From Candidatus Enterousia sp. (GTDB lineage: Bacteria > Pseudomonadota > Alphaproteobacteria > Rs-D84), in NCBI GenBank assembly GCA_045630455.1, contig JAZQTD010000030.1, forward strand, positions 50,422 to 114,421: 64,000 bases of DNA, in the 5' to 3' direction. Position numbers and translations under genes: made by a program. Shown piece by piece: positions 18,830-42,246 of the stretch (its first letter is position 1; each line of letters starts with the position of its first letter). The notes beneath the pieces were generated by a model that saw nothing but the letters and a program-made list of their open reading frames with translations, was not told the origin of the DNA and made no database searches.

Positions 18830-18906
18830 CGGGGTGTAGCTCAGTCTGGTAGAGTGCTTGGTTTGGGACCAAGATGTCGAAGGTTCGAATCCTTTCGCCC
18901 CGACCA
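18830..18906 (+). tRNA. tRNA-Pro (anticodon UGG)
   Basis: CGGGGTG acceptor stem pairing with CGCCCCG, D-arm GCTCAGTCTGGTAGAGT, anticodon loop TTTGGGA, T-arm GAAGGTTCGAATCCTTT, encoded CCA. Confidence 0.93.
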
Positions 18907-25723: not shown

Positions 25724-25800
25724 GTGCCCATGGCTCAATCGGATAGAGCAATTGCCTTCTAAGCAATAGGTTGCAGGTTCGAGTCCTGCTGGGCACGCCA
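25724..25800 (+). tRNA. island-encoded tRNA-Arg (anticodon UCU)
   Basis: GTGCCCA-TG-GCTC-AATCGGATA-GAGC-A-ATTGC-CTTCTAA-GCAAT-AGGTT-GCAGG-TTCGAGT-CCTGC-TGGGCAC-G-CCA. All stems pair perfectly. A possible own promoter is TTGAAT(25621)-16-TATAAT(25643). Confidence 0.92.
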
Positions 25801-30109: not shown

Positions 30110-31372
30110 TTAACGGAATGACGTATTTTTATTCGGTTTAAACCTCCACGTCATTTCTGTTTTTCTTTTATTACATACCGAAAGATCATGACTTTCCCAT
30201 TTTTTTACTGTTGACCATACCTTATCAAAGAAAAAATCTTGATGTGCTCTTACGGCAAAAAAATCATTTTCTTCTTTGGAACTAGGCACAATATAAACCA
30301 TGGACAAGTTTCCAAAGGTTAAAAAAGCCCATAATTTTGGCAACTGTTGTTTAGATTTTGCTCGTTTCACAAAAACAATTAACTCTGGATATTCACATAG
30401 TTTATATTTTTTCGTTCGTATTTTAACTACTGGCAAAGTTCCCCAAAATTCATCTTTAGTAATCCAGTTAATGGTTTCGGTAAAATTGCCACAAAATAAT
30501 TCTGCATTTATAACGCTTAGAGCATATTTACATAATGTTTTATAAATATTTTGTGGTGTTATTGATAACCCTTTACACACAGGAATAGTTAACAAATCTT
30601 GTAAATGGTTAACAGGGCGTTTTATTGAAATTTTCAACTTTTTATCTAAATCCTTATCATCACGATACATTCTCACTTCTGAGTTAGACATTGTTGGTGT
30701 TCCTGTTTTCCCACACACATTAAAAAAGATACGACTTGGCAATATCCAGTTACCGAAATCCTGTTCTATACCATTTCCAAACTTCTCATTACATGTATCA
30801 CATTCTTCGTTTAGTATTATTTTTTTATTATTTAAAAACTCAGAAAAAGCATGAGCTTTATGCTTAAAACTCACTTCCGGCATAGATTTACCACAAAATC
30901 TGCATCTTCTTTTTTGTCGAATTCTTTCGCCTACTTTTATTTCGTTATCAGCGTAAAAAGAATAATAATTATAATTATCTAAACATTTCATTGGAAACGG
31001 CATTTTTATACTTACACCATTAAGCCGAGCTAAAATTTTGCGAATTTTTATTTCTCGCTTTTGTGGTATTTTACTTATATCAGAACAAACAAAGATATAT
31101 TCATTTATACTACATTCTTCTAAGAATGTCTTCACTGTCCACAGTTGTGGACAATTTGAAATATAATGATTGAAAAAAAACTCAAAATCTTGTTTTTGTT
31201 TCTCAGAATAGCGAAAAATTGGACATTTTAATTTATTGTTTTTTACTTGTAGCCCAAAAAGTTTATATAATTTTAATATAAATTCATACGTTTCTTTATT
31301 TGGTGCTACAGATAAACTGACTAATTTTTGGGTGGACATAAAGCATATAGATATATTGTTTTTACCATTCAT
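30110..31372 (-). CDS. HNH-like (HNH_5-type zinc-finger nuclease motif) protein, otherwise uncharacterised
   Basis: 420 aa, very AT-rich. The central CRFCGKSMPEVSFKHKAHAFSEFL...NEECDTCNEKFGNGIEQDFGNW matches the C..C...H....C..CN..fG..lE layout. The N- and C-terminal regions are unrecognised. Confidence 0.55.
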   Translation of the reverse strand: MNGKNNISICFMSTQKLVSLSVAPNKETYEFILKLYKLFGLQVKNNKLKCPIFRYSEKQKQDFEFFFNHYISNCPQLWTVKTFLEECSINEYIFVCSDISKIPQKREIKIRKILARLNGVSIKMPFPMKCLDNYNYYSFYADNEIKVGERIRQKRRCRFCGKSMPEVSFKHKAHAFSEFLNNKKIILNEECDTCNEKFGNGIEQDFGNWILPSRIFFNVCGKTGTPTMSNSEVRMYRDDKDLDKKLKISIKRPVNHLQDLLTIPVCKGLSITPQNIYKTLCKYALSVINAELFCGNFTETINWITKDEFWGTLPVVKIRTKKYKLCEYPELIVFVKRAKSKQQLPKLWAFLTFGNLSMVYIVPSSKEENDFFAVRAHQDFFFDKVWSTVKKWESHDLSVCNKRKTEMTWRFKPNKNTSFR

Positions 31373-32340: not shown

Positions 32341-32937
32341 GTGATATATGGTTATATTCGGGTTTCTACCGACAAACAGGACTGCGAAAATCAAAAATTA
32401 GGCATTGAATCCAAAGCCAGCGCATTAGGGCTTTGTATTGATAAATACATTGAAGATGCAGGCATTTCCGGCACCAAAGAACCAGAGCAACGCGCATTAG
32501 GCGGTGTTTTGCGACATTTAAATCCGGGCGACGTTATAATATGTAGTGAACTTTCGCGTCTGGGGCGAAAAATGTTCATGATTATGCGAATATTGGAGCA
32601 TTGTATGAAAATTGGGGCGCGTCTTTATACCGTCAAAGATGGCTATGAGTTGGGTGACACTATTCAATCTAAGGTTTTAGCATTTGCGTTTGGGCTATCA
32701 GCTGAGATTGAACGTAATCTTATTGCCCAGCGCACCAAAGAAGCATTGGCGGCATTACAATTACGCGGTGTGAAACTGGGCCGTCCAAATGGCCAAAAGA
32801 ATACTTACCATATCATTGACGGTCATGAAAACTTGATTTTAGACATGTATTCAGCAGGAGTTTCTAAACGAAAAATTGCCAGAACTATCCGGGTCAGCCC
32901 GCCCACAATTTCGCGATTTCTTGAAAGCAGAAAATGA
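32341..32937 (+). CDS. serine recombinase (resolvase/invertase family)
   Basis: 198 aa with a GTG start after AAGGAG. YGYIRVSTDKQ contains the catalytic Ser. Also SELSRLGR, a GLSAEIERNLI E-helix, and the C-terminal HTH SKRKIARTIRVSPPTISRFL. Confidence 0.9.
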   Translation: MIYGYIRVSTDKQDCENQKLGIESKASALGLCIDKYIEDAGISGTKEPEQRALGGVLRHLNPGDVIICSELSRLGRKMFMIMRILEHCMKIGARLYTVKDGYELGDTIQSKVLAFAFGLSAEIERNLIAQRTKEALAALQLRGVKLGRPNGQKNTYHIIDGHENLILDMYSAGVSKRKIARTIRVSPPTISRFLESRK

Positions 32938-33032: not shown

Positions 33033-33713
33033 GTGGCAAAATCTTCGCAAGATTCTTCCAACAAACAAATCGTTTCAAAACGTCGTATTGCCGATCATGG
33101 GGAAGTATTCACGGCCCCACGGGAAGTTAATGCCATGCTGGACTTGGTAAAACAAGAAACCCAGCGCATTGACAGTCGTTTCTTGGAACCTGCCTGTGGC
33201 AAGGGCGCATTCCTGACCGAAATTTTGCGCAGAAAACTGGAAATTGTAAATTCACGCTATCATAAAAGCCAGATTGAATATGAACGATACATGGCATTGG
33301 CCGTGTCCAGCATATATGGCATTGATATTTTGCCCGACAATGTGGCGGATTGCCGTTCTTTGTTATTGGGTATCTGTATCGATAATTATGCCAGCGCATG
33401 TAAATTGAAATGCGAATGTATTCCAACTGATTTTATTGAAACGCTGCGCTTTATTTTAGGCAAAAACATTGTGCTGGGGGATGCATTAACCCTGAAACAG
33501 GTTGACGGTTCAAACGCCCCGATTGTATTCAGTGAATGGTCGTTGGTCATGGGTGACATGTTCAAGCGCCGTGATTTTTATTTCTATTCCTTGGTTGACA
33601 GCGAAATGGGCGGCGAATATTGCCGTTCTGATATGGGTGGCGGCACATGGATGCCCGTGCCTGTGCGTGAATTTCCCCTGACACATTACAAAAGGTTAAA
33701 ATATGCAGAATAA
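33033..33713 (+). CDS. adenine-methyltransferase-like protein lacking the catalytic (D/N)PP(Y/F) motif
   Basis: 226 aa. Motif X-like GEVFTAPREVNAMLDL, SAM motif I LEPACGKGAFL, then IYGIDI. I find no NPPY-type motif IV. GTG start. Confidence 0.55.
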   Translation: MAKSSQDSSNKQIVSKRRIADHGEVFTAPREVNAMLDLVKQETQRIDSRFLEPACGKGAFLTEILRRKLEIVNSRYHKSQIEYERYMALAVSSIYGIDILPDNVADCRSLLLGICIDNYASACKLKCECIPTDFIETLRFILGKNIVLGDALTLKQVDGSNAPIVFSEWSLVMGDMFKRRDFYFYSLVDSEMGGEYCRSDMGGGTWMPVPVREFPLTHYKRLKYAE

Positions 33714-35271
33714 CACATATAACCCAGACGTGTTAAGTTGCCTGGCAAATTTAAGTAATGACGAAGTATTTACACCACCTGCATTGGCAAATCAAATGCT
33801 GGACATGTTGCCAGCGGAATTGTGGTCAAATCCCGATGCAAGGTTCCTGGACCCGTGTTGCAAAAGTGGTGTATTCCTGCGTGAAATCGCGAAACGCCTT
33901 ATTGTTGGATTAGAACATCAAATTCCAGATTTACAGGAACGTCTGAACCACATTTATAAAAACCAGTTATTCGGCATTGCCATCACGGAATTAACATCGT
34001 TGCTGGCGCGACGTTCGGTATATTGTTCCAAGAACGCAAACAGCCAATATTCTATTTGCACCGATTTTAACACCAACAGTGGCAACATCATATTTGAACG
34101 GGTTCAACACACATGGGAAAACGGTCGCTGTAAATTTTGTGGTGCCGTACAAACAGAATATGACCGTGACACCAGCCTGGAAACACACGCATATCAATTC
34201 ATTCACGCAGACGAGGTATTTAATATGAAATTTGACGTAATTATTGGCAATCCACCTTACCAAATGAATGTTGGCAACGATGGCGGCAATAAGGCTAAAG
34301 CCAAAGCAATTTACCATAAATTTGTTGAACAGGCAGAAAAATTACAACCCAAATATTTATGCATGATTATCCAGAGCCGTTGGATGACCCGAACTGCAGA
34401 AGGAGTGCCTGAAGAATGGACAGACAGAATGCTTAATTGCAATCATATAAAAACGATGCATGACTTTGTAGACGCTAACATCTGCTTTCCTGGCGTAGAT
34501 ATAAAGGGGGGCGTTTGTTATTTTCTGTACGAAAAAGATTATGTTGGCAAATGTTCATATTTTTTACACAAAGATTCGAATTCTGCGCCTCTGCTAAACA
34601 AGGATTTCCTGAACGCTAAGGGGATTGGTATAGTTATAAGAGATTTGAATGCACTTTCAATATTATCAAAAATTGAGGGTGTTGAAGGTGCTTATTTAGA
34701 ACAAGAAAGTACGAATTTCTCTGGTCTAGTAAGCCCAAAGGATTTTTTTACCAACAAACAACAACTAACATCCAGTTGGGACCAATATGATGATGTTAAG
34801 TCAAGGGCTTCAGACATAAAATATTATTTAAACAAATCCATGCACAAGAAAGAGTTTGGCTGGATTAACGAAACCCAGATTCCAAAAAATAGGCAAGCCA
34901 TTAAACTGAATAAAGTATATATCACATCCGCTGCTGGCTCTGGAACAGATAGTCAGGTTTTAGGAAGACCTTTTTATGGGGAACCCAACAGCGTTTGTTC
35001 GCAAACATATTTAGTAATTGGTTATGACCCAGATAAACATAATTTCACTCAGACACAATGCGAAAACATAATATCATATATTAAAACCCGTTTTTTCCGA
35101 TATTTGGTGAGCATAAAAAAGAAAACCCAAAATGGCCCCAGGGGTGTTTATCAGTTTGTTCCCATGCAGGATTTTAGCGAACCGTGGGACGATGCCAAGT
35201 TATACAAGAAATATGGCCTGACGGCGGACGAAATCGCCTTTATTGAATCAATGGTTCGACCAATGGAGTAA
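33703..35271 (+). CDS. N6-adenine DNA methyltransferase (Eco57I/gamma-class) with C-terminal putative target-recognition region
   Basis: 522 aa. Reads EVFTPPALANQMLDML, LDPCCKSGVFL (motif I), LFGIAI, FDVIIGNPPYQ (motif IV). Confidence 0.85.
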   Translation: MQNNTYNPDVLSCLANLSNDEVFTPPALANQMLDMLPAELWSNPDARFLDPCCKSGVFLREIAKRLIVGLEHQIPDLQERLNHIYKNQLFGIAITELTSLLARRSVYCSKNANSQYSICTDFNTNSGNIIFERVQHTWENGRCKFCGAVQTEYDRDTSLETHAYQFIHADEVFNMKFDVIIGNPPYQMNVGNDGGNKAKAKAIYHKFVEQAEKLQPKYLCMIIQSRWMTRTAEGVPEEWTDRMLNCNHIKTMHDFVDANICFPGVDIKGGVCYFLYEKDYVGKCSYFLHKDSNSAPLLNKDFLNAKGIGIVIRDLNALSILSKIEGVEGAYLEQESTNFSGLVSPKDFFTNKQQLTSSWDQYDDVKSRASDIKYYLNKSMHKKEFGWINETQIPKNRQAIKLNKVYITSAAGSGTDSQVLGRPFYGEPNSVCSQTYLVIGYDPDKHNFTQTQCENIISYIKTRFFRYLVSIKKKTQNGPRGVYQFVPMQDFSEPWDDAKLYKKYGLTADEIAFIESMVRPME

Positions 35272-35274
35272 GTT

Positions 35275-37806
35275 ATGGCAAAGAAAGTTATGTTTCCAGC
35301 ACGTCCTGATGCCAACCCAACTATTTATGCGTATTCGGACAAAAATCCACAATATGATGGCATGTTAAAGGTGGGCTACACTATAAAGTCCGCTGCAACC
35401 CGTGTGGCCGAACAATACCCCATACTAAAACCTGGCGATATTCCATATGTCATCCATGTGGACGAACCTGCCATTCGCAAGGACGGCTCGGTATTCACAG
35501 ACAAAGACGTCCATCGCATATTGCGAAACCGTGGCATTATTCAACTGCACGACAAAGACGGCAAGTTAACCGAATGGTTCCAATGCGACGTCAAAGACGT
35601 TATGGCGGCAATCACATCATTGCGCACAGGCACCGACCTGGAAACCCAGCGCACAGAAACATTTGCCATGCGCCCCGAACAGGCCGAAGCCGTTGAAAAA
35701 ACAATCGCTTATTTCAATGCTTGGCACCATGAAAACCCTGGTAAAACTCCGCACTTTTTGTGGAATGCCAAAATGCGTTTTGGTAAAACATTCGCCACAT
35801 ATCAACTGGCCAAACAAATGGGGTGGTCCAAGATATTGGTGCTGACATTCAAACCTGCGGTGCATCAGGCATGGGAAGAAGACCTGAACAGCCATTGTGA
35901 CTTTGACGGGTGGCAGTTTATTTCCAAAAAAGACAAAACAACCGAACAATTCATGGATGCGGTCAAACACCTGGACAGCAATCGCCCCATTGTGTGCTTT
36001 GGTTCATTCCAGGATTATCTGGGCAAAAATGATGCAGGCGGCATCAAGGCACAGAACGAATGGGTGCATGGCACAAACTGGGATTGTGTCGTATTTGACG
36101 AGTATCATTATGGCGCATGGCGTGAAAATGCCAAAGACCTGTTTGAAAACGAATCCAAAGCCGAACAAAAAAATGCCGCTGGCGAGGCTATGGACTATTT
36201 TGACGAGTCTAACATGCCAATCACCACAGGGCATTATTTATACCTGTCTGGCACCCCGTTCCGCGCCATAAACAGCGGCGAATTCATAGAAGAGCAAATT
36301 TATAACTGGACATATTCGGATGAACAGCGCGAAAAAGAAGAGTGGAAAGGTCCAAACAATCCGTATGCGGCTTTGCCACGCATGGTAATGATGACATATC
36401 AGTTGCCCGACACCATTCGCAATATCGCATTGGGTGGCGAATTTAACGAATTCAACCTTAATGAATTCTTTGCCGCCGATGGCGATGGGGAAAATGCCAA
36501 GTTCAAATATGAAAACGAAGTTCAAAAATGGCTGGACTTAATTCGTGGCCAGTTGGCAGAAACCACCCTGGACAGCCTGAAAATGGGCGCCAAGAAACCG
36601 CCAATGCCATTTGCAGACACACGCCTGTTGGGCATCCTGTCACATACAATATGGTTCCTGCCATCAATTGCGGCATGCAATGCCATGGCAAACCTGCTGA
36701 AACGCCGTCAAAACACATTTTACCATGATTATCGGGTAATTGTGGCCGCAGGCACGTCCGCTGGCGTTGGCATAAAAGCCCTGGCACCTGTGCAAGAGAA
36801 AATGGCCAACCCATTGGAAACAAAAACAATCACCTTGTCATGCGGCAAACTGATGACGGGGGTATCGGTTAAACCATGGTCTGGCATCTTTATGCTGTGC
36901 AACCTTAAAAGCCCAGAATCATATTTCCAGGCGGCATTCCGTGTTCAAACCCCATGGACAATCAAAAATCCAGACGGAGAACACCCAAATGCCACCCAAA
37001 TCATGAAAGAAGAGTGTTATATCTTTGACTTTGCGCCTGACCGTGCGTTGCGCCAAATCACAGATTATAGTTGCCGACTGAATGTAAATGAATCCGACCC
37101 AGAAAAGAAAGTTGCTGAATTTATTAACTTTTTGCCTGTATTGGCCTATGACGGCAGCGCCATGCGCCAAGTTAATGCCAGCGAAATTCTGGACATGGCA
37201 ATGAGTGGAACCAGCGCAACCCTGTTGGCACGCAGATGGGAAAGCGCATTGCTGGTAAATGTGGACAATGCGACCCTGTTGCGCCTTATGAACAACAAAG
37301 CGGCCATGGACGCACTTATGAGCATCGAGGGATTCCGCAGTTTGAATCAGGACATTGAAACGGTTATTAACAAGTCAAACGCCGTGAAAGAAAAGAAAGC
37401 AGCCGCCAATGAACGGGAATTGACCCCAAAAGAAAAGAAAGAAATGTCGGAAGAAGAAAAAGAATTCAAATCCGCACGCAAACGCATCCAGGAAAAACTG
37501 ATTAAGTTCGCAACCCGTGTGCCGATTTTCATGTATTTAACCGACTATCGTGAACGCAGTTTGAAAGACGTCATAACCCAATTGGAACCTGGGCTGTTTA
37601 AAAAGGTGACGGGGCTGGACGTAAAAGATTTTGAATTGCTGGTAAGTTTGGGTGTGTTCAACGATGCGCTTATGAACGATGCGGTGTATAAATTCAAACG
37701 CTATGAAGACGCCAGTTTGGAATATGCAGGCATTAACAAACACGCAGGTGAAAGCGTTGGATTATTCGACACAGTCCTAAGCCACGAAGATTACGAGATG
37801 ATGTAA
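35275..37806 (+). CDS. GIY-YIG/T5orf172-domain plus SF2 (ResIII/SNF2-like) helicase fusion, putative restriction subunit
   Basis: 843 aa. The N-terminal roughly 115 aa read IYAYSD...MLKVGYT...RVAEQ...DKDVHRIL...LTEWF (T5orf172/MUG113-like GIY-YIG fold). Helicase motif I AKMRFGKT, motif II VVFDEYHYG, motif III LYLSGTPF. The start is 4 nt after the MTase stop. Confidence 0.8.
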   Translation: MAKKVMFPARPDANPTIYAYSDKNPQYDGMLKVGYTIKSAATRVAEQYPILKPGDIPYVIHVDEPAIRKDGSVFTDKDVHRILRNRGIIQLHDKDGKLTEWFQCDVKDVMAAITSLRTGTDLETQRTETFAMRPEQAEAVEKTIAYFNAWHHENPGKTPHFLWNAKMRFGKTFATYQLAKQMGWSKILVLTFKPAVHQAWEEDLNSHCDFDGWQFISKKDKTTEQFMDAVKHLDSNRPIVCFGSFQDYLGKNDAGGIKAQNEWVHGTNWDCVVFDEYHYGAWRENAKDLFENESKAEQKNAAGEAMDYFDESNMPITTGHYLYLSGTPFRAINSGEFIEEQIYNWTYSDEQREKEEWKGPNNPYAALPRMVMMTYQLPDTIRNIALGGEFNEFNLNEFFAADGDGENAKFKYENEVQKWLDLIRGQLAETTLDSLKMGAKKPPMPFADTRLLGILSHTIWFLPSIAACNAMANLLKRRQNTFYHDYRVIVAAGTSAGVGIKALAPVQEKMANPLETKTITLSCGKLMTGVSVKPWSGIFMLCNLKSPESYFQAAFRVQTPWTIKNPDGEHPNATQIMKEECYIFDFAPDRALRQITDYSCRLNVNESDPEKKVAEFINFLPVLAYDGSAMRQVNASEILDMAMSGTSATLLARRWESALLVNVDNATLLRLMNNKAAMDALMSIEGFRSLNQDIETVINKSNAVKEKKAAANERELTPKEKKEMSEEEKEFKSARKRIQEKLIKFATRVPIFMYLTDYRERSLKDVITQLEPGLFKKVTGLDVKDFELLVSLGVFNDALMNDAVYKFKRYEDASLEYAGINKHAGESVGLFDTVLSHEDYEMM

Positions 37807-37889
37807 AAAACAGCATTTAATCTATGGATTTTTAAGGATTTCTGTACTAGGATTTACTTGGTAAAAAGTCACCAAGGAATGTTATTGTT

Positions 37890-38573
37890 ATGGAATTTGA
37901 CAATCGCGATATAGAAATCCCGAATGCCATCATATCGATGGAGAATTTTTATGCACAAAATTTGGGACCAAAACGTAAAAAAATTTGTGAAATTCTTAGA
38001 ACCTTTAGCGATGATGCCGTCAACATATATTTAGCAGGCGTTGCTGCATTAGAAATTCCTAATTTTCCGGCCAAGCAATCTATTATTGGACATTGTTTCA
38101 GGGAGTTAATAAATGCCCTTGTAAGATCTGACGAAAACGAATTAAAGCAACAAGTGTTCACGGCTTTAAAATCTGCTGAATTTATAAGAAACAGTGAAAG
38201 CAAAAACGAACGCATTGAGCATGTAGTTAACGAAATATGGGAAAAGATAAAACCCTTAAATAATGAGACTTCAAAATTAAAAACAATGTTTATAGATAAA
38301 AATCCAAAACAAAAAAAAGATTTACTATTTTCTGATATAGAAACACGAAAAAAAACACAAAAAAATATAGATGATGTTATTCAGCAGGTTTTGACTGCGA
38401 AAGGGAATCTTGATAAAAGAAGACACTTTAATAAAAAATTTTCTATAATACCCAATGAACAGTTGATTGAAAACGTAACCATATTAGAAAATTATATTTT
38501 ACAATTAGAAGATCCAACATATATAAAACAAAAAGGGATGTTAGATGAAATCTTGGAAACAGCCAACTCCTGA
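37890..38573 (+). CDS. hypothetical protein (227 aa, predicted alpha-helical)
   Basis: AT-rich ORF 84 nt downstream of the helicase gene. No recognisable catalytic motif. Its 3' end overlaps the next ORF by 29 nt. Confidence 0.55.
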   Translation: MEFDNRDIEIPNAIISMENFYAQNLGPKRKKICEILRTFSDDAVNIYLAGVAALEIPNFPAKQSIIGHCFRELINALVRSDENELKQQVFTALKSAEFIRNSESKNERIEHVVNEIWEKIKPLNNETSKLKTMFIDKNPKQKKDLLFSDIETRKKTQKNIDDVIQQVLTAKGNLDKRRHFNKKFSIIPNEQLIENVTILENYILQLEDPTYIKQKGMLDEILETANS

Positions 38574-41427
38574 ACAGGTTTGTTTTGTTACAAATAGCAT
38601 GAAAGGGAACCTTAAAAGTTACTTCCTTTCTAGACTAGAAAATCCATTGTGGTTTCAGCCTTTGTATGACGAACATCTATTAGATTTCTCAAAAAAGTAT
38701 GCTGATGAGATACAAGATTATATATATTCATGGGATGCTTTACCATACTTATCAAGAATGGCGTCCATAATTCCAGAACAAGTTTTTGCACTCATAGAAC
38801 CTTTAGTAAATGCAATAAAAGACGCTTCAATTGAATCACCTTGGTTGGTTAAAGTAATCGTATTATCAATAGCTAAAGAAATGCCAGATACGCAATTTAA
38901 AGCCATTATGACGGCGTTCACATCATATATTTATAAAACACCATTTATCGATTTGTTTGATTTTACAACATTAAAATCTAATTTAATTAGATTTAAGAGA
39001 CTTGATCCTGCACAAGCTTTGAATTTGACAGAAGCGTTATTATCGTTGCAAATAAAATATGTTGGGGAATATGGTTCTACAGAAGTTGTGTCTAAATATG
39101 GAGACAATGATTATTATAGATACCAAGAGATGTTGAAAATTTTTCAAGAAATCTACAACAAACAAAAATTAAAACTATTTTCTGTTTTGGTTAAAATCTT
39201 TGATGATACAATTTATAAAACTTGCACACAAGAAGAACGAGAGAAATACGATAATTCTGTGTATATGGATCGTCCTGCTATAGAGAATAGCGAACAAAAT
39301 CATAATTTTTCTGGTCCAGAACACTTTGCAATAGATGCGATGCGCGACATTGCATCGTCCATAATATCCACAAATAAAAAAGACGAGGCCAATAAAGTTT
39401 TTGATCTGCTACAAAATTCTAAATCGCCCATCCTTGTGAGATTATACTTGTTTTTATTATCCGTGACTGATGTTTGTGACAAAAAAATCTTATCAGAAAG
39501 CTTGACGAATTATGAATTTTTTGATGGCCTAAATTATCACCATGAATACTTCCATTTGTTGAATAAAAAATTCAAAAAATTATCCAAAACAGCTCAATCT
39601 GTTATTCTCAAATATATTGAGGATGGCCCAACTGGTGATTATTACAAAAATAGTGAAGATAGCACTTCTGCAAAAGAACGTCAAAATCGTTGGAAGTTTA
39701 AACACTTGATACCTATATTAGGCTCTTTAACAAAAAAACAAAAGGAACGATTTAAAGATATATTGTTTGATGATACTGGGAACCCTATCATGCCAGGAGA
39801 CCACCCAGACTTTCTAACATGGATGAGTGGTTTTATAACTGTAAGACATGAATCTCCTTTAAAATCAGAAGAAATTCAAAACTCAAGCGTTGCAAAAATA
39901 ATTAAAACAATGCAAGAATGGCAACCTGCGCCTGATAATTGGCACGGCAAGCCGGACAGAGAAGGTTTTGCTGAAGCTATCAAACAGGATGTCTTAAATA
40001 CCCCCAAAAAGTACATATCTTCGCTCGGTAAATTAACAACTATAACTGAACCAACATACATTAGAGCCATTTTGCGCGGCATTATAGAATCTGGCTCAAA
40101 AACATCTGATGACTGGGTAAAAATTATTGATTTTATTGATTGGGTTGCAAAACAAAATGAAACATTTGATGATAGAAAAAGTTTTCATGACGGTGACCAA
40201 GATTGGTATTGGACAAAACAAGAAGTTGCTTCGTTGTTAAATTCTGCTTTTGTAAAAGATTCTAGTATAGATAAAACAGACGAACAATTGATTGAAAAAT
40301 CTTTCGATATTCTATATTCCTTGATAAATTCTGAAGACAAATTACTTGAAAATAAAAAAGATGAGGTTTGTTCTGGAGATAATTACATAAATAGAGCTAT
40401 TAACTCTGTTCATGGCCAAGCTTTGGATTCGTTATTAACTTTTGCTCTATGGTTAAAGAACAACAGCAAGTCAACAAATCAGGTAGAAGCATTATTAACC
40501 GATATTGTACAACGCCCCAAATATATTGACTCCCTTGCTATAATTGCTCGTGCTCTACCGTGGGTACATTTGTCTATGCCGGAATTTACTGAAAAAAATA
40601 TCGATATTCTTTTCCCGGAATCAAAAGAATACCAGTATATTTTAGATGTAACATGGCCAACTTTTGTTCTGTATACACGTGCATATGAAGACATGTTCTA
40701 TCTTATGAAAGAGAAATTTTGTTATGTGTTAAAAAAACATTTGTATATTGATCAAGATAAAAAACGTACAGATAAACAAATTGCCCGTCACCTAATGCTC
40801 TACTATGCTTGGGGATTGTATGACTTAGATTCTGAAATTTTATCTCTTCTTTTTGACGATATGGCAAATAAAGAAGAAATGGTGTCTTTTGTAAATCTTA
40901 TCGGTTTTATGCTATATCAAGTTAAATCGGATAACGATAATGTTTCAGATGAAATGATCCAACGTTTTATAGATTTTTGGGAATGGTTTATTGAGCATAT
41001 AAAGGGCAAAGAATCCGATTACAAAGATGTATTAAAGGAATTTGAGCGATGGTATCAATGCGGAAAATTCACAAAAGGAAACTGGGGTTTAAAACATTTG
41101 CATAGATTGGTAGCAGATGATAATCTGAAAATATCCATGTCTAATTTTATGTTAGAAGAGACTTTGGTCAGCGATTTATCAGAGAATCCCAGACTGGTAT
41201 TTGATATTGTTTCAAGGTTGGCTTTTAGAGGTGCAAGATTCGATTCTTTCAGAAGGAATGGGCTTATAGAACAAACTCTTGAATATATAAAAAATCATGA
41301 TTTTCCGGAAGACGAGACATTAAAAAGCGAAAAAGATGACTTTATAAGTAAATTATTACAAAATGCCGATTCTTGGGAATTAGACGATGCGTCTGCAAGA
41401 TTTGAAAAATATAGAGAAGATAGATAA
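38545..41427 (+). CDS. large hypothetical protein (960 aa, predicted helical-repeat)
   Basis: Uninterrupted 2.9-kb ORF in very AT-rich DNA. I see no Walker A/B, HNH, PD-(D/E)xK or other motif. Confidence 0.65.
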   Translation: MKSWKQPTPEQVCFVTNSMKGNLKSYFLSRLENPLWFQPLYDEHLLDFSKKYADEIQDYIYSWDALPYLSRMASIIPEQVFALIEPLVNAIKDASIESPWLVKVIVLSIAKEMPDTQFKAIMTAFTSYIYKTPFIDLFDFTTLKSNLIRFKRLDPAQALNLTEALLSLQIKYVGEYGSTEVVSKYGDNDYYRYQEMLKIFQEIYNKQKLKLFSVLVKIFDDTIYKTCTQEEREKYDNSVYMDRPAIENSEQNHNFSGPEHFAIDAMRDIASSIISTNKKDEANKVFDLLQNSKSPILVRLYLFLLSVTDVCDKKILSESLTNYEFFDGLNYHHEYFHLLNKKFKKLSKTAQSVILKYIEDGPTGDYYKNSEDSTSAKERQNRWKFKHLIPILGSLTKKQKERFKDILFDDTGNPIMPGDHPDFLTWMSGFITVRHESPLKSEEIQNSSVAKIIKTMQEWQPAPDNWHGKPDREGFAEAIKQDVLNTPKKYISSLGKLTTITEPTYIRAILRGIIESGSKTSDDWVKIIDFIDWVAKQNETFDDRKSFHDGDQDWYWTKQEVASLLNSAFVKDSSIDKTDEQLIEKSFDILYSLINSEDKLLENKKDEVCSGDNYINRAINSVHGQALDSLLTFALWLKNNSKSTNQVEALLTDIVQRPKYIDSLAIIARALPWVHLSMPEFTEKNIDILFPESKEYQYILDVTWPTFVLYTRAYEDMFYLMKEKFCYVLKKHLYIDQDKKRTDKQIARHLMLYYAWGLYDLDSEILSLLFDDMANKEEMVSFVNLIGFMLYQVKSDNDNVSDEMIQRFIDFWEWFIEHIKGKESDYKDVLKEFERWYQCGKFTKGNWGLKHLHRLVADDNLKISMSNFMLEETLVSDLSENPRLVFDIVSRLAFRGARFDSFRRNGLIEQTLEYIKNHDFPEDETLKSEKDDFISKLLQNADSWELDDASARFEKYREDR

Positions 41428-42246
41428 TTATGCTTTTTTAGCTGATGCTGGTGTTAAACCTTCTGTTGCGAGTGGTTTGATATGTAATATATGATCGCCG
41501 TGTTGTTTAAGAACGAAACAGACATTTAGTAATGAATTCAAAACAGTTTGCAAAACCGCCGCCCTAGCATATTTACTTTCATCTTCTTGAAAAGATTGAC
41601 TTGTTGCAAAAAATCTTCTTACCAAATATGGCGAAAAGTGTTTATAGCCACAAAACAGTTGATAATTTTCGTAGTTTATATCTTTGTTTTCATAATATGC
41701 AATCAACTCTGGTGTGTCTTGAATTGACTCTAAAACAAGCTTGAAATAATCTTCTGATATGTTTTGTATCGTATCTCCGTACCACTTTTTGTTGTAACTG
41801 TTACGATCAAGCCTATTTGGATTCTTAAGGCTTTTACGAAGGAATCTATCACAATTATTTTGATTCAGTAATTCTAAAACCCTATCTTTACGATCTGGGT
41901 GTACACGTAACATTTCTATTTGTTCAACATATCCAAAATCTATAAAATCTTTACCCCTGGTATTAAAATGCTTGTTTAACCATAGCAGTTGTATTTCAGC
42001 TTCTAAAATTTGACACGTAATGGAACTAGCCACAAAAACTCTGTTATTTTGCAAAGCATCATAAACCTCTGCCGACAGAGAAATAATAGCCCCCACCAAA
42101 CTATGTAGCCCCATAAGAGCCTTGTCTTTTGTAGCCTGAGGGTGAAATGATTCCATGGTGCGAACCATCATCCTTAATTTTTTCATTAAGATGTCTACGT
42201 CATCATTCTTTAACGGATGTGGCAATGGATATTCTTTGTTTAACAT
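41428..42246 (-). CDS. hypothetical protein, DUF5677/AbiV-like (tentative)
   Basis: 272 aa. The segment SSITCQILEAEIQLLWLNKHFNTRGKDFIDFGYVEQIEMLR resembles the R.l.E..i.l.yl core I associate with DUF5677/AbiV-type helical proteins. This is from recollection only. It converges on the 960-aa ORF, and the two stop codons abut. Confidence 0.4.
   Translation of the reverse strand: MLNKEYPLPHPLKNDDVDILMKKLRMMVRTMESFHPQATKDKALMGLHSLVGAIISLSAEVYDALQNNRVFVASSITCQILEAEIQLLWLNKHFNTRGKDFIDFGYVEQIEMLRVHPDRKDRVLELLNQNNCDRFLRKSLKNPNRLDRNSYNKKWYGDTIQNISEDYFKLVLESIQDTPELIAYYENKDINYENYQLFCGYKHFSPYLVRRFFATSQSFQEDESKYARAAVLQTVLNSLLNVCFVLKQHGDHILHIKPLATEGLTPASAKKA

What the first reader, a model, noticed from the sequence alone, without database searches (positions are those of the whole stretch)
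37890..41427. Unrecognisable 227-aa + 960-aa gene pair in the defence island, the best candidate here for an undescribed system
- **Gene layout.** Two co-oriented ORFs overlap by 29 nt (38545-38573). They start 84 nt after the helicase gene and end stop-to-stop against a DUF5677/AbiV-like gene.
- **Composition.** The block is visibly much more AT-rich than both the host backbone and the adjacent RM module, which suggests separate acquisition.
- **Content.** Neither protein shows any motif I can name. I see no P-loop, no HNH, PD-(D/E)xK, TIR, SIR2 or obvious HEPN signature, and no TM segments. Both look all-alpha. The large one looks like a helical-repeat scaffold (its N-terminus reads ...LENPLWFQPLYDEHLL...).
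- **Context.** A long intact ORF kept in AT-rich DNA, translationally coupled to a small partner and sitting among restriction and abortive-infection-type genes, is the classic guilt-by-association signature of an anti-phage or anti-MGE system.
Basis: inference. Interest (0 to 1): 0.7.

Follow-up and report, generated by a model that had tools for sequence, protein, structure and literature searches.

The report
Split Dsr1-like sensor–effector defence pair
The two overlapping genes are real and encode a very divergent, two-piece version of the Dsr1 family of anti-phage proteins, in which the usual NAD-destroying SIR2 domain is replaced by a small helical protein of unknown activity.

Summary
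ORF A (37890-38573, 227 aa) and ORF B (38545-41427, 960 aa) are co-oriented, overlap by 29 nt, lie in a 31-33% GC block and match no Pfam, PADLOC, NCBIfam, PHROGs or PDB entry directly.

The pair is not an unrecognisable new system.
- **B is a Dsr1-type sensor.** An exhaustive profile search finds about 7,400 related clusters. 41 of 42 sampled relatives hit PADLOC's Dsr1 model over its non-SIR2 part. The window-clade profile aligns to a bona fide Bacillus Dsr1 at 99.3% hhalign probability. A 2026 preprint shows that this Dsr1/Avs7 sensor recognises phage major capsid protein and pairs with many effectors.
- **A sits where SIR2 sits in Dsr1.** It is either fused to B (42 of 45 N-terminally extended relatives) or encoded separately. 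When separate, a 29- or 38-nt overlap is conserved across phyla and codes for both proteins.
- **A's activity is unknown.** It has near-invariant Y, H-x2-R-[E/D] and H residues. A confident model has no fold match. Some relatives give a partial match to Pfam pP_pnuc_1 (predicted nuclease).
- **Context.** RM genes are the commonest neighbours.

Verdict: a new variant of a known kind (split gene, non-SIR2 effector). Interest is moderate and rests on the uncharacterised effector.

The parts
37890..38573 (+). Gene A, 227 aa. A small all-helical protein that occupies the effector (SIR2) position of Dsr1-type proteins. Near-invariant residues are Y47, H68-x2-R71-E72, H179 and L222. Its C-terminal helix is ...LDEILETANS.
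   Evidence: ORF. Family alignments and invariant residues. A-family HMM hits the N-termini of fused relatives. Model with pLDDT 79 and pTM 0.71, 12 helices. No fold or sequence relatives in PDB or BFVD. Partial pP_pnuc_1 match in relatives.
38545..41427 (+). Gene B, 960 aa. An alpha-solenoid (HEAT/TPR-like) sensor homologous to the non-SIR2 region of Dsr1.
   Evidence: ORF. E=4e-134 against an HMM of 41 Dsr1-hitting relatives. 41 of 42 relatives hit PADLOC Dsr1 over profile positions ~290-1215 of 1227. hhalign 99.3% (E=4.5e-20) to Bacillus mycoides Dsr1 residues 676-1195. Karyopherin-like fold matches.
38545..38573 (+). 29-nt dual-coding overlap. It encodes the end of A (..DEILETANS*) in one frame and the start of B (MKSWKQPTP..) in the +1 frame.
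   Evidence: Sequence. The same 29-nt (or 38-nt) overlap, the same frame relation and near-identical DNA (ATGAAATCYTGGAAGAAGCCAAC...TGA) recur in most split loci from Poribacteria, Planctomycetota, Chloroflexota, Proteobacteria and others. Both peptide motifs appear in tandem in fused relatives.
38533..38538 (+). Purine-rich Shine-Dalgarno-like AAGGGA, ending 6 nt upstream of the B start codon, inside the coding sequence of A.
   Evidence: Read from the sequence. An AGGAG at the equivalent position is conserved in the Poribacteria loci. Its function is inferred.
38018..38598 (+). Replaced cassette: A residues 43-227 plus the first 18 codons of B. It is the only part of the A/B genes that does not align at DNA level with the ~94% identical islands of the closest relatives, where the corresponding tract gives a single fused ORF.
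   Evidence: blastn of the window against L012, L010 and L001. Sliding protein identity is 22-57% in the A core and 52-72% in the first 80 aa of B, against 85-100% in the rest of B.

Best explanation
A and B together form a two-gene, non-SIR2 variant of the Dsr1-type anti-phage protein.

**Shown: B is the sensor.** B is a ~960-aa alpha-solenoid homologous to the C-terminal ~900 residues of Dsr1. These belong to the Dsr1/Avs7 sensor superfamily.

**Shown: A fills the effector slot.** A is the module that occupies the N-terminal slot held by SIR2 in Dsr1 and by a PIN domain in a few relatives.

**Inferred: how the two proteins associate.** In the split form A is made as a separate protein. It stays attached to B through its conserved C-terminal connector helix (LDEILE-AN) and the conserved N-terminus of B (MKSWKxPT). 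The 29-nt overlap carries B's own SD-like sequence and start codon inside the end of A, which would couple synthesis of the two proteins.

**Inferred: how it acts.** By analogy with E. coli Dsr1 and S. enterica Avs7, B binds a conserved phage structural protein during infection, most likely the major capsid protein. The resulting conformational change or oligomerisation switches on A.

**Inferred: what A does.** A's chemistry is unknown. My best guess is a metal-independent nuclease or RNase that uses the near-invariant His68/Arg71/Glu72 and His179. This would stop phage replication or host growth.
For: **Pair linkage.**
- An A-like ORF of 208-271 aa precedes B, with a 29- or 38-nt overlap in the same frame relation, in about 35 of about 50 loci from many phyla.
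- Independent natural A+B fusions occur in Alphaproteobacteria, Terriglobia, Amycolatopsis and Pirellulales.
- Of the 150 best family representatives, 103 are B-only and 45 carry an N-terminal extension. Of those 45, 42 are A-type and 3 are PIN.

**B is a Dsr1-type sensor.**
- 41 of 42 relatives hit PADLOC Dsr1 model PDLC04166, best E=3e-67. The match covers profile positions ~290-1215 of 1227, which is everything after SIR2.
- Window B scores E=4e-134 against the HMM of those relatives.
- A Bacillus mycoides 'SIR2 family protein' is a bona fide Dsr1 (PADLOC E=7e-163). It matches the window-clade profile over its residues 339-1310 (E=2e-36), and hhalign gives 99.3% probability.
- The model is an alpha-solenoid.

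**Function of the sensor family.**
- Dsr1 protects against phages and depletes NAD+ (bioRxiv 10.1101/2021.12.14.472415; PMC9391042).
- The Dsr1/Avs7 sensor is triggered by phage major capsid protein. It is found with NADase, nuclease, kinase and 'HEPN-like RNase' effectors, and N-terminal effector mutations abolish defence (PMC12803255).

**A as effector.**
- It holds the SIR2 position.
- Its polar residues are near-invariant at ~15-20% overall identity.
- pP_pnuc_1 ('predicted pPIWI-associating nuclease') matches the first conserved motif in 4 of 10 relatives, two of them above Pfam's gathering score.
- PIN nucleases occur as alternative N-domains.

**Context.**
- RM genes are the most frequent immediate neighbours.
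- The block is AT-rich.
- The taxonomic distribution is patchy.
Against: - Window B itself does not reach PADLOC's Dsr1 model. The link is transitive or profile-based, at about 18% identity, so trigger specificity may differ from Dsr1 and Avs7.
- A has no detectable SIR2, HEPN, PIN or other catalytic signature.
- A has no Foldseek match in PDB or BFVD (best E=0.6-0.7).
- The pP_pnuc_1 match covers only 37 of 133 profile positions and is absent from window A itself.
- A could therefore be an adaptor rather than an enzyme.
- Many neighbours in other lineages are housekeeping genes, and the RM-nested loci are dominated by one phylum, Poribacteria.
- No experiment exists for any A-type member that I could find.
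Confidence: 0.7

Rival explanations
1. A is not an enzyme. It is an adaptor or regulatory cap, comparable to effector-associated (EAD/death-like) helical domains. On sensing by B it recruits or releases an effector encoded elsewhere, for example the adjacent RM nuclease/helicase or the DUF5677 protein.
For: - A is a plain helical bundle with no fold relative.
- The pair is repeatedly placed inside or directly behind RM operons. In Poribacteria it lies between Type III mod and res, with the res start overlapping the B stop. It lies behind RM genes in the window, Chloroflexota and Gammaproteobacteria.
- EAD-type adaptors are listed among the N-domains of this sensor family (legend of Fig. 2 in PMC12803255).
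Against: - The neighbours differ between lineages, and many loci have no defence gene next to the unit. The fused single-gene forms therefore look self-sufficient.
- DUF5677, the helicase and the MTase accompany the pair only in the closest clade.
- The His/Arg/Glu/His conservation at ~15-20% identity is more typical of a catalytic site than of an adaptor.
- PIN and SIR2 enzymes fill the same slot in relatives.
Confidence: 0.15
2. The 'pair' is a single gene. It is either a frameshift-inactivated (or mis-sequenced) copy of the ~1,195-aa fused gene seen in close relatives, or a gene whose full-length product is made by programmed +1 ribosomal frameshifting in the 29-nt overlap.
For: - The closest relatives (85-91% identical in B) encode one fused ORF of 1,191-1,196 aa.
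- B lies in the +1 frame of A in every split locus.
- The overlap DNA is unusually conserved.
Against: - The split arrangement with the same 29- or 38-nt overlap is the commonest state across phyla at ~20% protein identity, so it is not a recent lesion.
- 227-aa A proteins at 68-90% identity exist as separate ORFs.
- The window differs from its fused relatives by a replaced 0.58-kb cassette, not by an indel.
- B has its own ATG preceded by an SD-like sequence.
- Fused forms carry the A-end motif and the B-start motif in tandem. A frameshift inside the overlap could not reproduce that, so dual coding alone explains the DNA conservation.
Confidence: 0.05
3. The pair has a non-defence role, for example a helical-repeat scaffold or chaperone for a cellular process or for the mobile element that carries it.
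For: - B's fold matches are to karyopherins, CAND1 and other generic scaffolds.
- Several loci are flanked by housekeeping genes.
- There is no experimental data for this clade.
Against: - There is collinear homology over ~900 residues to the validated defence protein Dsr1.
- Effector-slot swapping between SIR2, PIN and A is a hallmark of immune sensors.
- The distribution is patchy and spans phyla.
- The composition is AT-rich and the setting is an RM/integrase island.
- No relatives were found in viral contigs or phage genomes, which argues against a phage structural role.
Confidence: 0.04

Closest known systems
Dsr1 (defence-associated sirtuin 1; Gao et al. 2020; Garb et al. 2021/2022; E. 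coli ECOR17 Dsr1, PMC9391042)
   Same: - B is homologous and collinear with the whole non-SIR2 part of Dsr1 (PADLOC profile positions ~290-1215; hhalign 99.3%).
- The effector module lies N-terminal to, or upstream of, the sensor.
- A helix '(L/I)D(E/D)IL' precedes the sensor in both.
- Both occur in a defence-island setting.
   Different: - There is no SIR2 domain, so NAD+ depletion cannot be assumed. A's slot is filled by an unrelated all-helical domain.
- Here two overlapping genes replace one polypeptide.
- Only ~18% identity is shared in the sensor, and the window protein falls below PADLOC's detection.
Dsr1/Avs7 sensor superfamily with exchangeable effectors (bioRxiv 2026, PMC12803255)
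   Same: - The paper reports about 9,100 proteins that share this sensor with NADase, nuclease, kinase, 'HEPN-like RNase', EAD and unknown N-terminal domains.
- It notes that for split proteins the adjacent genes were analysed.
- The trigger shown for SeAvs7 and EcDsr1 is the phage major capsid protein.
- The A+B family fits this description. tblastn with a family member also reaches haloarchaeal 'AAA ATPase' (Avs-like) proteins and Bacillus SIR2 proteins.
   Different: - B has no STAND NTPase, so it is Dsr1-like rather than Avs7-like.
- I could not check whether the A-type domain is one of the paper's named classes, for example its Streptomyces 'HEPN-like RNase' or an 'Unknown' class. The supplementary tables are not held.
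- A Streptomyces plasmid protein I examined does carry a short A-type N-domain.
- As far as I could find, no A-type member was tested experimentally.
Pfam PF18165 pP_pnuc_1 (predicted pPIWI-associating nuclease)
   Same: - The first conserved motif of the A family (Y-x-G-A ... P ... A-H-x2-R-E-L) is matched by this model in 4 of 10 A-type domains, with two above the gathering score.
- Like SIR2, it is a module annotated as partnering prokaryotic Argonaute-type systems, which is an effector-type role (my knowledge of the Pfam name only).
   Different: - Only 37 of 133 profile positions align.
- Window A itself gives no hit.
- The nuclease activity of pP_pnuc_1 is itself only predicted.
DSR2 (SIR2 + alpha-solenoid sensor that binds the phage tail tube protein)
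   Same: The logic is the same: an N-terminal effector plus a large helical-repeat C-terminal sensor that binds a phage structural protein directly (PMC10981675, PMC11850899).
   Different: No sequence relationship was detected. No Dsr2 model was hit in PADLOC, and no DSR2 structure appears among the top Foldseek matches.

Membership tests
Dsr1 (defence-associated sirtuin 1) | N-terminal SIR2 (NADase) domain | tested here: not met
   There is no SIR2 hit in A or B in Pfam or PADLOC. A is an all-helical bundle with no fold match. In a bona fide Dsr1 the SIR2 part is residues ~1-300, ahead of the region that aligns with B.
Dsr1 (defence-associated sirtuin 1) | Dsr1-type C-terminal sensor region (~900 aa helical repeats) | tested here: met
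   41 of 42 family members hit PADLOC Dsr1 over profile positions ~290-1215. Window B scores E=4e-134 against their HMM. hhalign gives 99.3% probability against Bacillus mycoides Dsr1. A direct hmmscan of window B is negative.
Dsr1 (defence-associated sirtuin 1) | Single-polypeptide, single-gene system | tested here: not met
   The window has two ORFs with a 29-nt overlap. Fused relatives exist.
Dsr1 (defence-associated sirtuin 1) | Anti-phage protection with NAD+ depletion | not testable with these tools
   This requires cloning, phage challenge and NAD+ measurement.
Dsr1/Avs7 sensor superfamily (PMC12803255) | Homology of the sensor domain to the Dsr1/Avs7 sensor | tested here: met
   Met through Dsr1. 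tblastn of a family member also reaches haloarchaeal AAA-ATPase (STAND-like) proteins at E=1e-25 to 1e-30. No direct comparison with SeAvs7 was made because I hold no sequence for it.
Dsr1/Avs7 sensor superfamily (PMC12803255) | Bilobed, sharply bent TPR/alpha-solenoid architecture | tested here: inconclusive
   The model of a fused relative is an alpha-solenoid (B part pLDDT ~85, pTM 0.47). Its fold matches are karyopherins and CAND1, E=3e-6 with low TM. I could not inspect the coordinates to judge the bend.
Dsr1/Avs7 sensor superfamily (PMC12803255) | Exchangeable effector N-terminal to the sensor | tested here: met
   A-type, PIN_12, HTH+A and SIR2 modules all occupy the same position. In the window the module is a separate upstream gene.
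Dsr1/Avs7 sensor superfamily (PMC12803255) | Activation by phage major capsid protein | not testable with these tools
   This needs a co-expression toxicity screen, a pull-down or complex prediction with cognate phage proteins.
Pfam pP_pnuc_1 (PF18165) | Match to the family model above the gathering score over most of its length | tested here: not met
   Window A gives no hit at E<0.1. Relatives match only profile positions 6-42 of 133, with 2 of 10 just above the gathering score.
HEPN superfamily RNases | R-x(4-6)-H catalytic motif on a four-helix core, with HEPN fold similarity | tested here: not met
   The conserved polar residues are H68-x2-R71-[E/D] and a lone H179. No conserved Arg lies 4-6 residues upstream of either His. 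No HEPN family appears in Pfam at E<=1 for 10 A-type domains. No HEPN structure appears among the Foldseek hits. HHpred-level comparison was not available.
AbiV/DUF5677 (the adjacent gene's family) | Homology of A to DUF5677 | tested here: not met
   hhalign of the A-family profile against the window DUF5677 protein gives probability 0.2%.

The most novel reading that the evidence does not exclude
**Reading 1.** The A-type module is a previously uncharacterised catalytic fold. It would be a new class of immune effector, using a His/Arg/Glu plus His site, that serves thousands of Dsr1-type sensors across bacterial phyla.

**Reading 2.** The phylum-spanning 29-nt dual-coding overlap is a selected device. 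It would set A:B stoichiometry or assembly, with A's last helix completing the sensor's N-terminal cap in trans.

**Reading 3.** The 0.58-kb cassette replacement that toggles fused and split forms and swaps the effector core may reflect selection by phage inhibitors aimed at the effector.
Probability: 0.35. Interest if true: 0.65.

Novelty: new variant of a known kind. Interest (0 to 1): 0.45.

Why it matters
- **A detection gap in defence annotation.** An abundant branch of the Dsr1/Avs7 sensor family lacks SIR2 and goes undetected. The profile search found about 7,400 clusters at 50% identity, but neither window protein gets a hit in PADLOC, Pfam or NCBIfam.
- **A concrete target for experiments.** The effector of this branch is a small helical domain with a clear set of invariant residues, no known fold relative and no assigned chemistry. 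Working out what it does would add an effector class to bacterial immunity. It would also test whether capsid sensing by this sensor can be wired to quite different outputs.
- **A natural split-versus-fused comparison.** Near-identical islands carry the split form or the fused form. This offers a ready experiment on how sensor and effector communicate.
- **A possible functional link to restriction.** The repeated nesting in RM operons hints at cooperation between restriction and abortive-type sensing.

Tried and rejected
**Searches that found nothing**
- Direct scans of A and B against Pfam, PADLOC, NCBIfam, PHROGs and PDB sequences gave nothing significant.
- The word-indexed homologue search suggested a rare family, with 19-23 clusters for B and 4 for A. 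This was a sensitivity artefact, which the exhaustive search corrected.
- Profile searches of PDB sequences with the B and A families found only designed helical proteins at E>0.03.
- Foldseek of A against PDB and BFVD gave no hit below E=0.5.
- Foldseek of the fused model gave only generic alpha-solenoids.
- tblastn of A against plasmids and of B against phages gave no match. A short A-type domain found only itself on plasmids.
- The canonical junction DNA pattern and the B profile found nothing in viral contigs.
- A literature search for 'pP_pnuc_1' found nothing. The first paper I checked for that domain was not its source. The supplement of PMC12803255 is not held.

**Calls that failed**
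It was replaced by an alignment of whole fused relatives.
- The search for related loci with the A alignment failed because no stretch was conserved enough.
- One scan was rejected for exceeding the residue limit, and P0020 was not on record for a context look-up.

**Uninformative result**
- The promoter/terminator scan found 26 promoter-like sites against 23 expected by chance. Only a weak stem-loop, at 37857-37876, lies between the helicase gene and A.

**Hypotheses rejected**
- A frameshifted pseudogene, or programmed frameshifting.
- Homology of A to the neighbouring DUF5677 protein.
- DUF5677, the helicase or the MTase as obligate partners. They accompany the pair only in the closest clade.


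Full report
**1. The observation**

ORF A (37890-38573, 227 aa) and ORF B (38545-41427, 960 aa) are present as described.
- They are co-oriented and overlap by 29 nt, with B in the +1 frame of A.
- A starts 84 nt after the upstream T5orf172+ResIII gene.
- B ends stop-to-stop against a convergent DUF5677 gene.
- GC is 0.31-0.33 over 38-42 kb against 0.42-0.48 around it.
- At this composition a 960-codon open frame has a chance probability of about 2e-36, so the ORFs are real genes.
- Direct scans of both proteins against Pfam, PADLOC, NCBIfam, PHROGs and PDB sequences returned nothing significant.

**2. The two genes are one functional unit**

The word-indexed homologue search found few relatives, but it was already informative.
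- The closest B relatives (85-90% identical) are 1,191-1,196 aa long. They are fusions of an A-like N-terminal domain with B.
- Genomic contexts of relatives at 43%, ~25% and ~21% identity each showed a 211-241-aa ORF upstream of B, overlapping it by 29-38 nt.
- A scan of one genome per species returned 45 loci from Poribacteria, Planctomycetota, Chloroflexota, Actinomycetota, Acidobacteriota, Proteobacteria and others. The window's nearest relatives are Alphaproteobacteria MAGs, for example from goat rectum.
- In about 35 of about 50 loci an A-like ORF ends 29 nt (sometimes 38 nt) after the B start, always in the same frame relation. Fused ORFs occur in Alphaproteobacteria, Terriglobia, Amycolatopsis and Pirellulales.

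The overlap DNA is nearly the same in all these phyla: ATGAAATCYTGGAAGAAGCCAAC...TGA.
- It encodes the end of A (…(D/H)EILEEAN*) in one frame and the start of B (MKSWKKPT…) in the other.
- Fused proteins carry both peptide motifs one after the other. Both motifs therefore matter at the protein level, and dual coding is enough to explain the DNA conservation.
- B has its own ATG with an SD-like sequence inside the end of A.
- I therefore reject both a frameshift pseudogene and programmed frameshifting.

**3. B is a Dsr1-type sensor**

- The exhaustive profile search with the B alignment found 7,393 representative clusters (at 50% identity) at E<=1e-3, and 3,658 at E<=1e-30. The family is large, and the earlier 'rarity' was a sensitivity artefact.
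- Of 42 diverse members, 41 hit PADLOC's Dsr1 model PDLC04166 (best E=3e-67). The window protein was the only one that did not.
- The match covers profile positions ~290-1215 of 1227, which is everything behind the SIR2 domain.
- Window B scores E=4e-134 against an HMM built only from those 41 relatives.
- A Bacillus mycoides plasmid 'SIR2 family protein' of 1,333 aa is a bona fide Dsr1 by PADLOC (E=7e-163).
  - It matches the window-clade profile over its residues 339-1310 (E=2e-36).
  - hhalign gives 99.3% probability (E=4.5e-20) over 506 columns.
- An AlphaFold model of a fused relative (B part pLDDT ~85) is an alpha-solenoid. Its only fold matches are karyopherin- and CAND1-type repeat proteins.

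**4. What is known about this sensor**

- Dsr1 is an experimentally validated anti-phage protein that lowers NAD+ during infection (bioRxiv 10.1101/2021.12.14.472415). The E. coli ECOR17 homologue restricts a T4 mutant lacking nrdC.5 (PMC9391042).
- A January 2026 preprint (PMC12803255) reports that Dsr1 and the STAND protein Avs7 share a TPR-type sensor.
  - About 9,100 proteins carry this sensor with diverse N-terminal effectors: NADases, nucleases, kinases, a 'HEPN-like RNase' in a Streptomyces protein, EADs and unknowns.
  - The phage major capsid protein is the trigger for both SeAvs7 and EcDsr1.
  - Effector mutations abolish defence.
  - The methods mention that for split proteins the adjacent genes were analysed.
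- The kind of system is therefore already described.

**5. A is the effector-slot module, and its activity is unknown**

- An HMM of the split-type A proteins hits the N-termini of most fused family members.
- Among the 150 best representatives, 103 are B-only and 45 have an N-terminal extension. Of those 45, 42 are A-type and 3 carry a PIN_12 domain. One has an extra HTH in front of A.
- A thus occupies the position that SIR2 holds in Dsr1.
- Across A proteins that share only 15-20% identity, the near-invariant residues are Y47, H68, R71 (usually followed by E or D), H179 and L222, in window numbering.
- A model of window A, built with whole fused relatives as the alignment, is confident (mean pLDDT 79, pTM 0.71) and shows a 12-helix bundle.
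- The model has no Foldseek match in PDB or BFVD (best E=0.6-0.7). The family profile has no PDB sequence match either.
- The only family signal is Pfam pP_pnuc_1, 'predicted pPIWI-associating nuclease'.
  - It matches the first motif (Y-x-G-A…P…A-H-x2-R-E-L) in 4 of 10 A-type domains.
  - Two of those exceed the gathering score.
  - The match covers only 37 of 133 profile positions, and window A itself gives no hit.
- There is no R-x4-6-H HEPN motif and no HEPN hit.
- A is unrelated to the adjacent DUF5677 protein.
- A Streptomyces plasmid protein carries a short A-type N-domain. Whether this is the preprint's 'HEPN-like RNase' class could not be checked.
- The last helix of A aligns with an 'IDDILKGE' helix that precedes the sensor in the Bacillus Dsr1. 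This suggests it is a connector belonging structurally to the sensor's N-terminal end. That is an inference from a small alignment.

**6. Most likely mechanism**

Shown:
- B is a Dsr1-type sensor.
- A fills the effector slot.
- The two are genetically coupled or fused.

Inferred:
- A binds B through its connector helix and B's conserved N-terminus.
- The overlap couples their translation.
- B recognises a conserved phage structural protein. The major capsid protein is the precedent. At ~18% identity the specificity may have changed.
- Recognition activates A.
- I consider a nuclease or RNase activity the most likely for A, at roughly 0.35-0.4. This rests on the His/Arg/Glu/His site, the partial pP_pnuc_1 match and the PIN domains used in the same slot.
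- An adaptor role is the main alternative.

**7. Context and microevolution**

- Among 128 immediate neighbours (±2 genes) in 33 loci, the commonest families are:
  - ResIII/Type III REase, 10 (best E=1.5e-152);
  - Type III MTase, 6;
  - Eco57I-type MTase, 3;
  - DUF3800, 3.
- In Poribacteria the pair sits between Type III mod and res, with the res start overlapping the B stop.
- Independent RM neighbours occur in Chloroflexota (Type IIG MTase) and a gammaproteobacterium (Type I HsdS). A NACHT protein is the neighbour in Trebonia. Other lineages have housekeeping neighbours.
- DUF5677, the T5orf172-ResIII protein and the MTase accompany the unit only in the closest Alphaproteobacteria clade.
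- Against those relatives the window is ~94% identical in DNA from 32.0 to 42.8 kb, except for two replaced tracts.
  - One is 34371-35145, inside the MTase gene.
  - The other is 38018-38598, which covers A residues 43-227 plus 18 codons of B.
  - The second tract converts a fused gene into the split pair and swaps the A core for a version that is ~30% identical.
- No relatives were found in phage genomes or viral contigs.

**8. Verdict**

- The finding is real, and it is almost certainly a defence module.
- It is a divergent, split, non-SIR2 variant of the Dsr1/Avs7-sensor kind, not an undescribed system.
- What is still open, and worth an experiment, is the chemistry of the A-type effector and the reason for the conserved dual-coding junction.
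- Scores: interest 0.45; novelty, new variant of a known kind.

Noticed in passing
window 34371-35145 and 38018-38598 (compared with L012, L010, L001): The whole island from 32.0 to 42.8 kb is ~93-95% identical in DNA to Alphaproteobacteria MAG loci, apart from two short replaced tracts. One lies inside the Eco57I-type methyltransferase gene and is probably its target-recognition part. The other covers the A core plus the A/B junction. Both look like diversification hot spots within one island.
   Followed up: partly
L020, L022, L023, L026, L033, L039, L043, L044, L049 (Poribacteria), about 7.3-15.6 kb in each locus: In Poribacteria the A-B pair is nested inside a Type III restriction-modification operon, in the order mod, sometimes DUF3800, A, B, res. 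The res start codon overlaps the B stop. The arrangement suggests co-transcription and possibly cooperation between the two defences.
   Followed up: partly
window 33033-37806: The upstream RM module looks like a Type IIG enzyme split into genes in swapped order. The 522-aa Eco57I-type MTase matches PADLOC REase_MTase_IIG profile positions 863-1357. The following 843-aa T5orf172(GIY-YIG-like)+ResIII protein matches positions 149-801. A 226-aa MTase-N-like ORF (33033-33713) precedes them. The same layout is conserved in relatives (L001, L002).
   Followed up: partly
window 41428-42246 (-): The DUF5677 (AbiV-like) gene is as AT-rich as A and B. It is conserved stop-to-stop with the B or fused gene in the close clade (73-96% identity) but is absent from all more distant loci. 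In L001 and L002 it is followed by a KAP-family NTPase gene.
   Followed up: partly
L014 127-1572 (Terriglobia): An RtcB RNA ligase gene (Pfam E=6e-175) ends exactly where the fused A+B gene starts. RtcB repairs RNA ends left by metal-independent RNases, so this could be a hint about A's chemistry. It could also be a coincidence, since it is a single locus.
   Followed up: no
L003, L004 (43%-identity relatives), 3.7-9.0 kb and 13.4-18.9 kb: In these loci the pair sits among phage- or satellite-like genes (large terminase, DUF5681, ParB-MTase). Nearby are a PADLOC candidate PDC-S11 protein, a KAP NTPase and a Fic protein. A remnant of the C-terminus of the T5orf172-ResIII gene lies ~3 kb downstream.
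   Followed up: no
window 18830-18906, 25724-25800, 30110-31372 (-), 32341-32937: The features are tRNA-Pro, tRNA-Arg, an HNH_5 endonuclease-domain protein and a serine resolvase. GC dips occur at 24-27 kb and 30-31 kb. The mobile or defence island may extend from the tRNA-Arg gene to about 43.7 kb, where TspO, transketolase and hisS begin.
   Followed up: no
plasmid hits H4-H13 (haloarchaeal plasmids) and H15-H25 (Bacillus, including B. anthracis pXO1-size plasmids): Relatives of the sensor occur on haloarchaeal plasmids in proteins annotated as AAA/ATP-binding proteins (Avs-like). They also occur in SIR2-family proteins on about 95 Bacillus conjugative plasmids.
   Followed up: no
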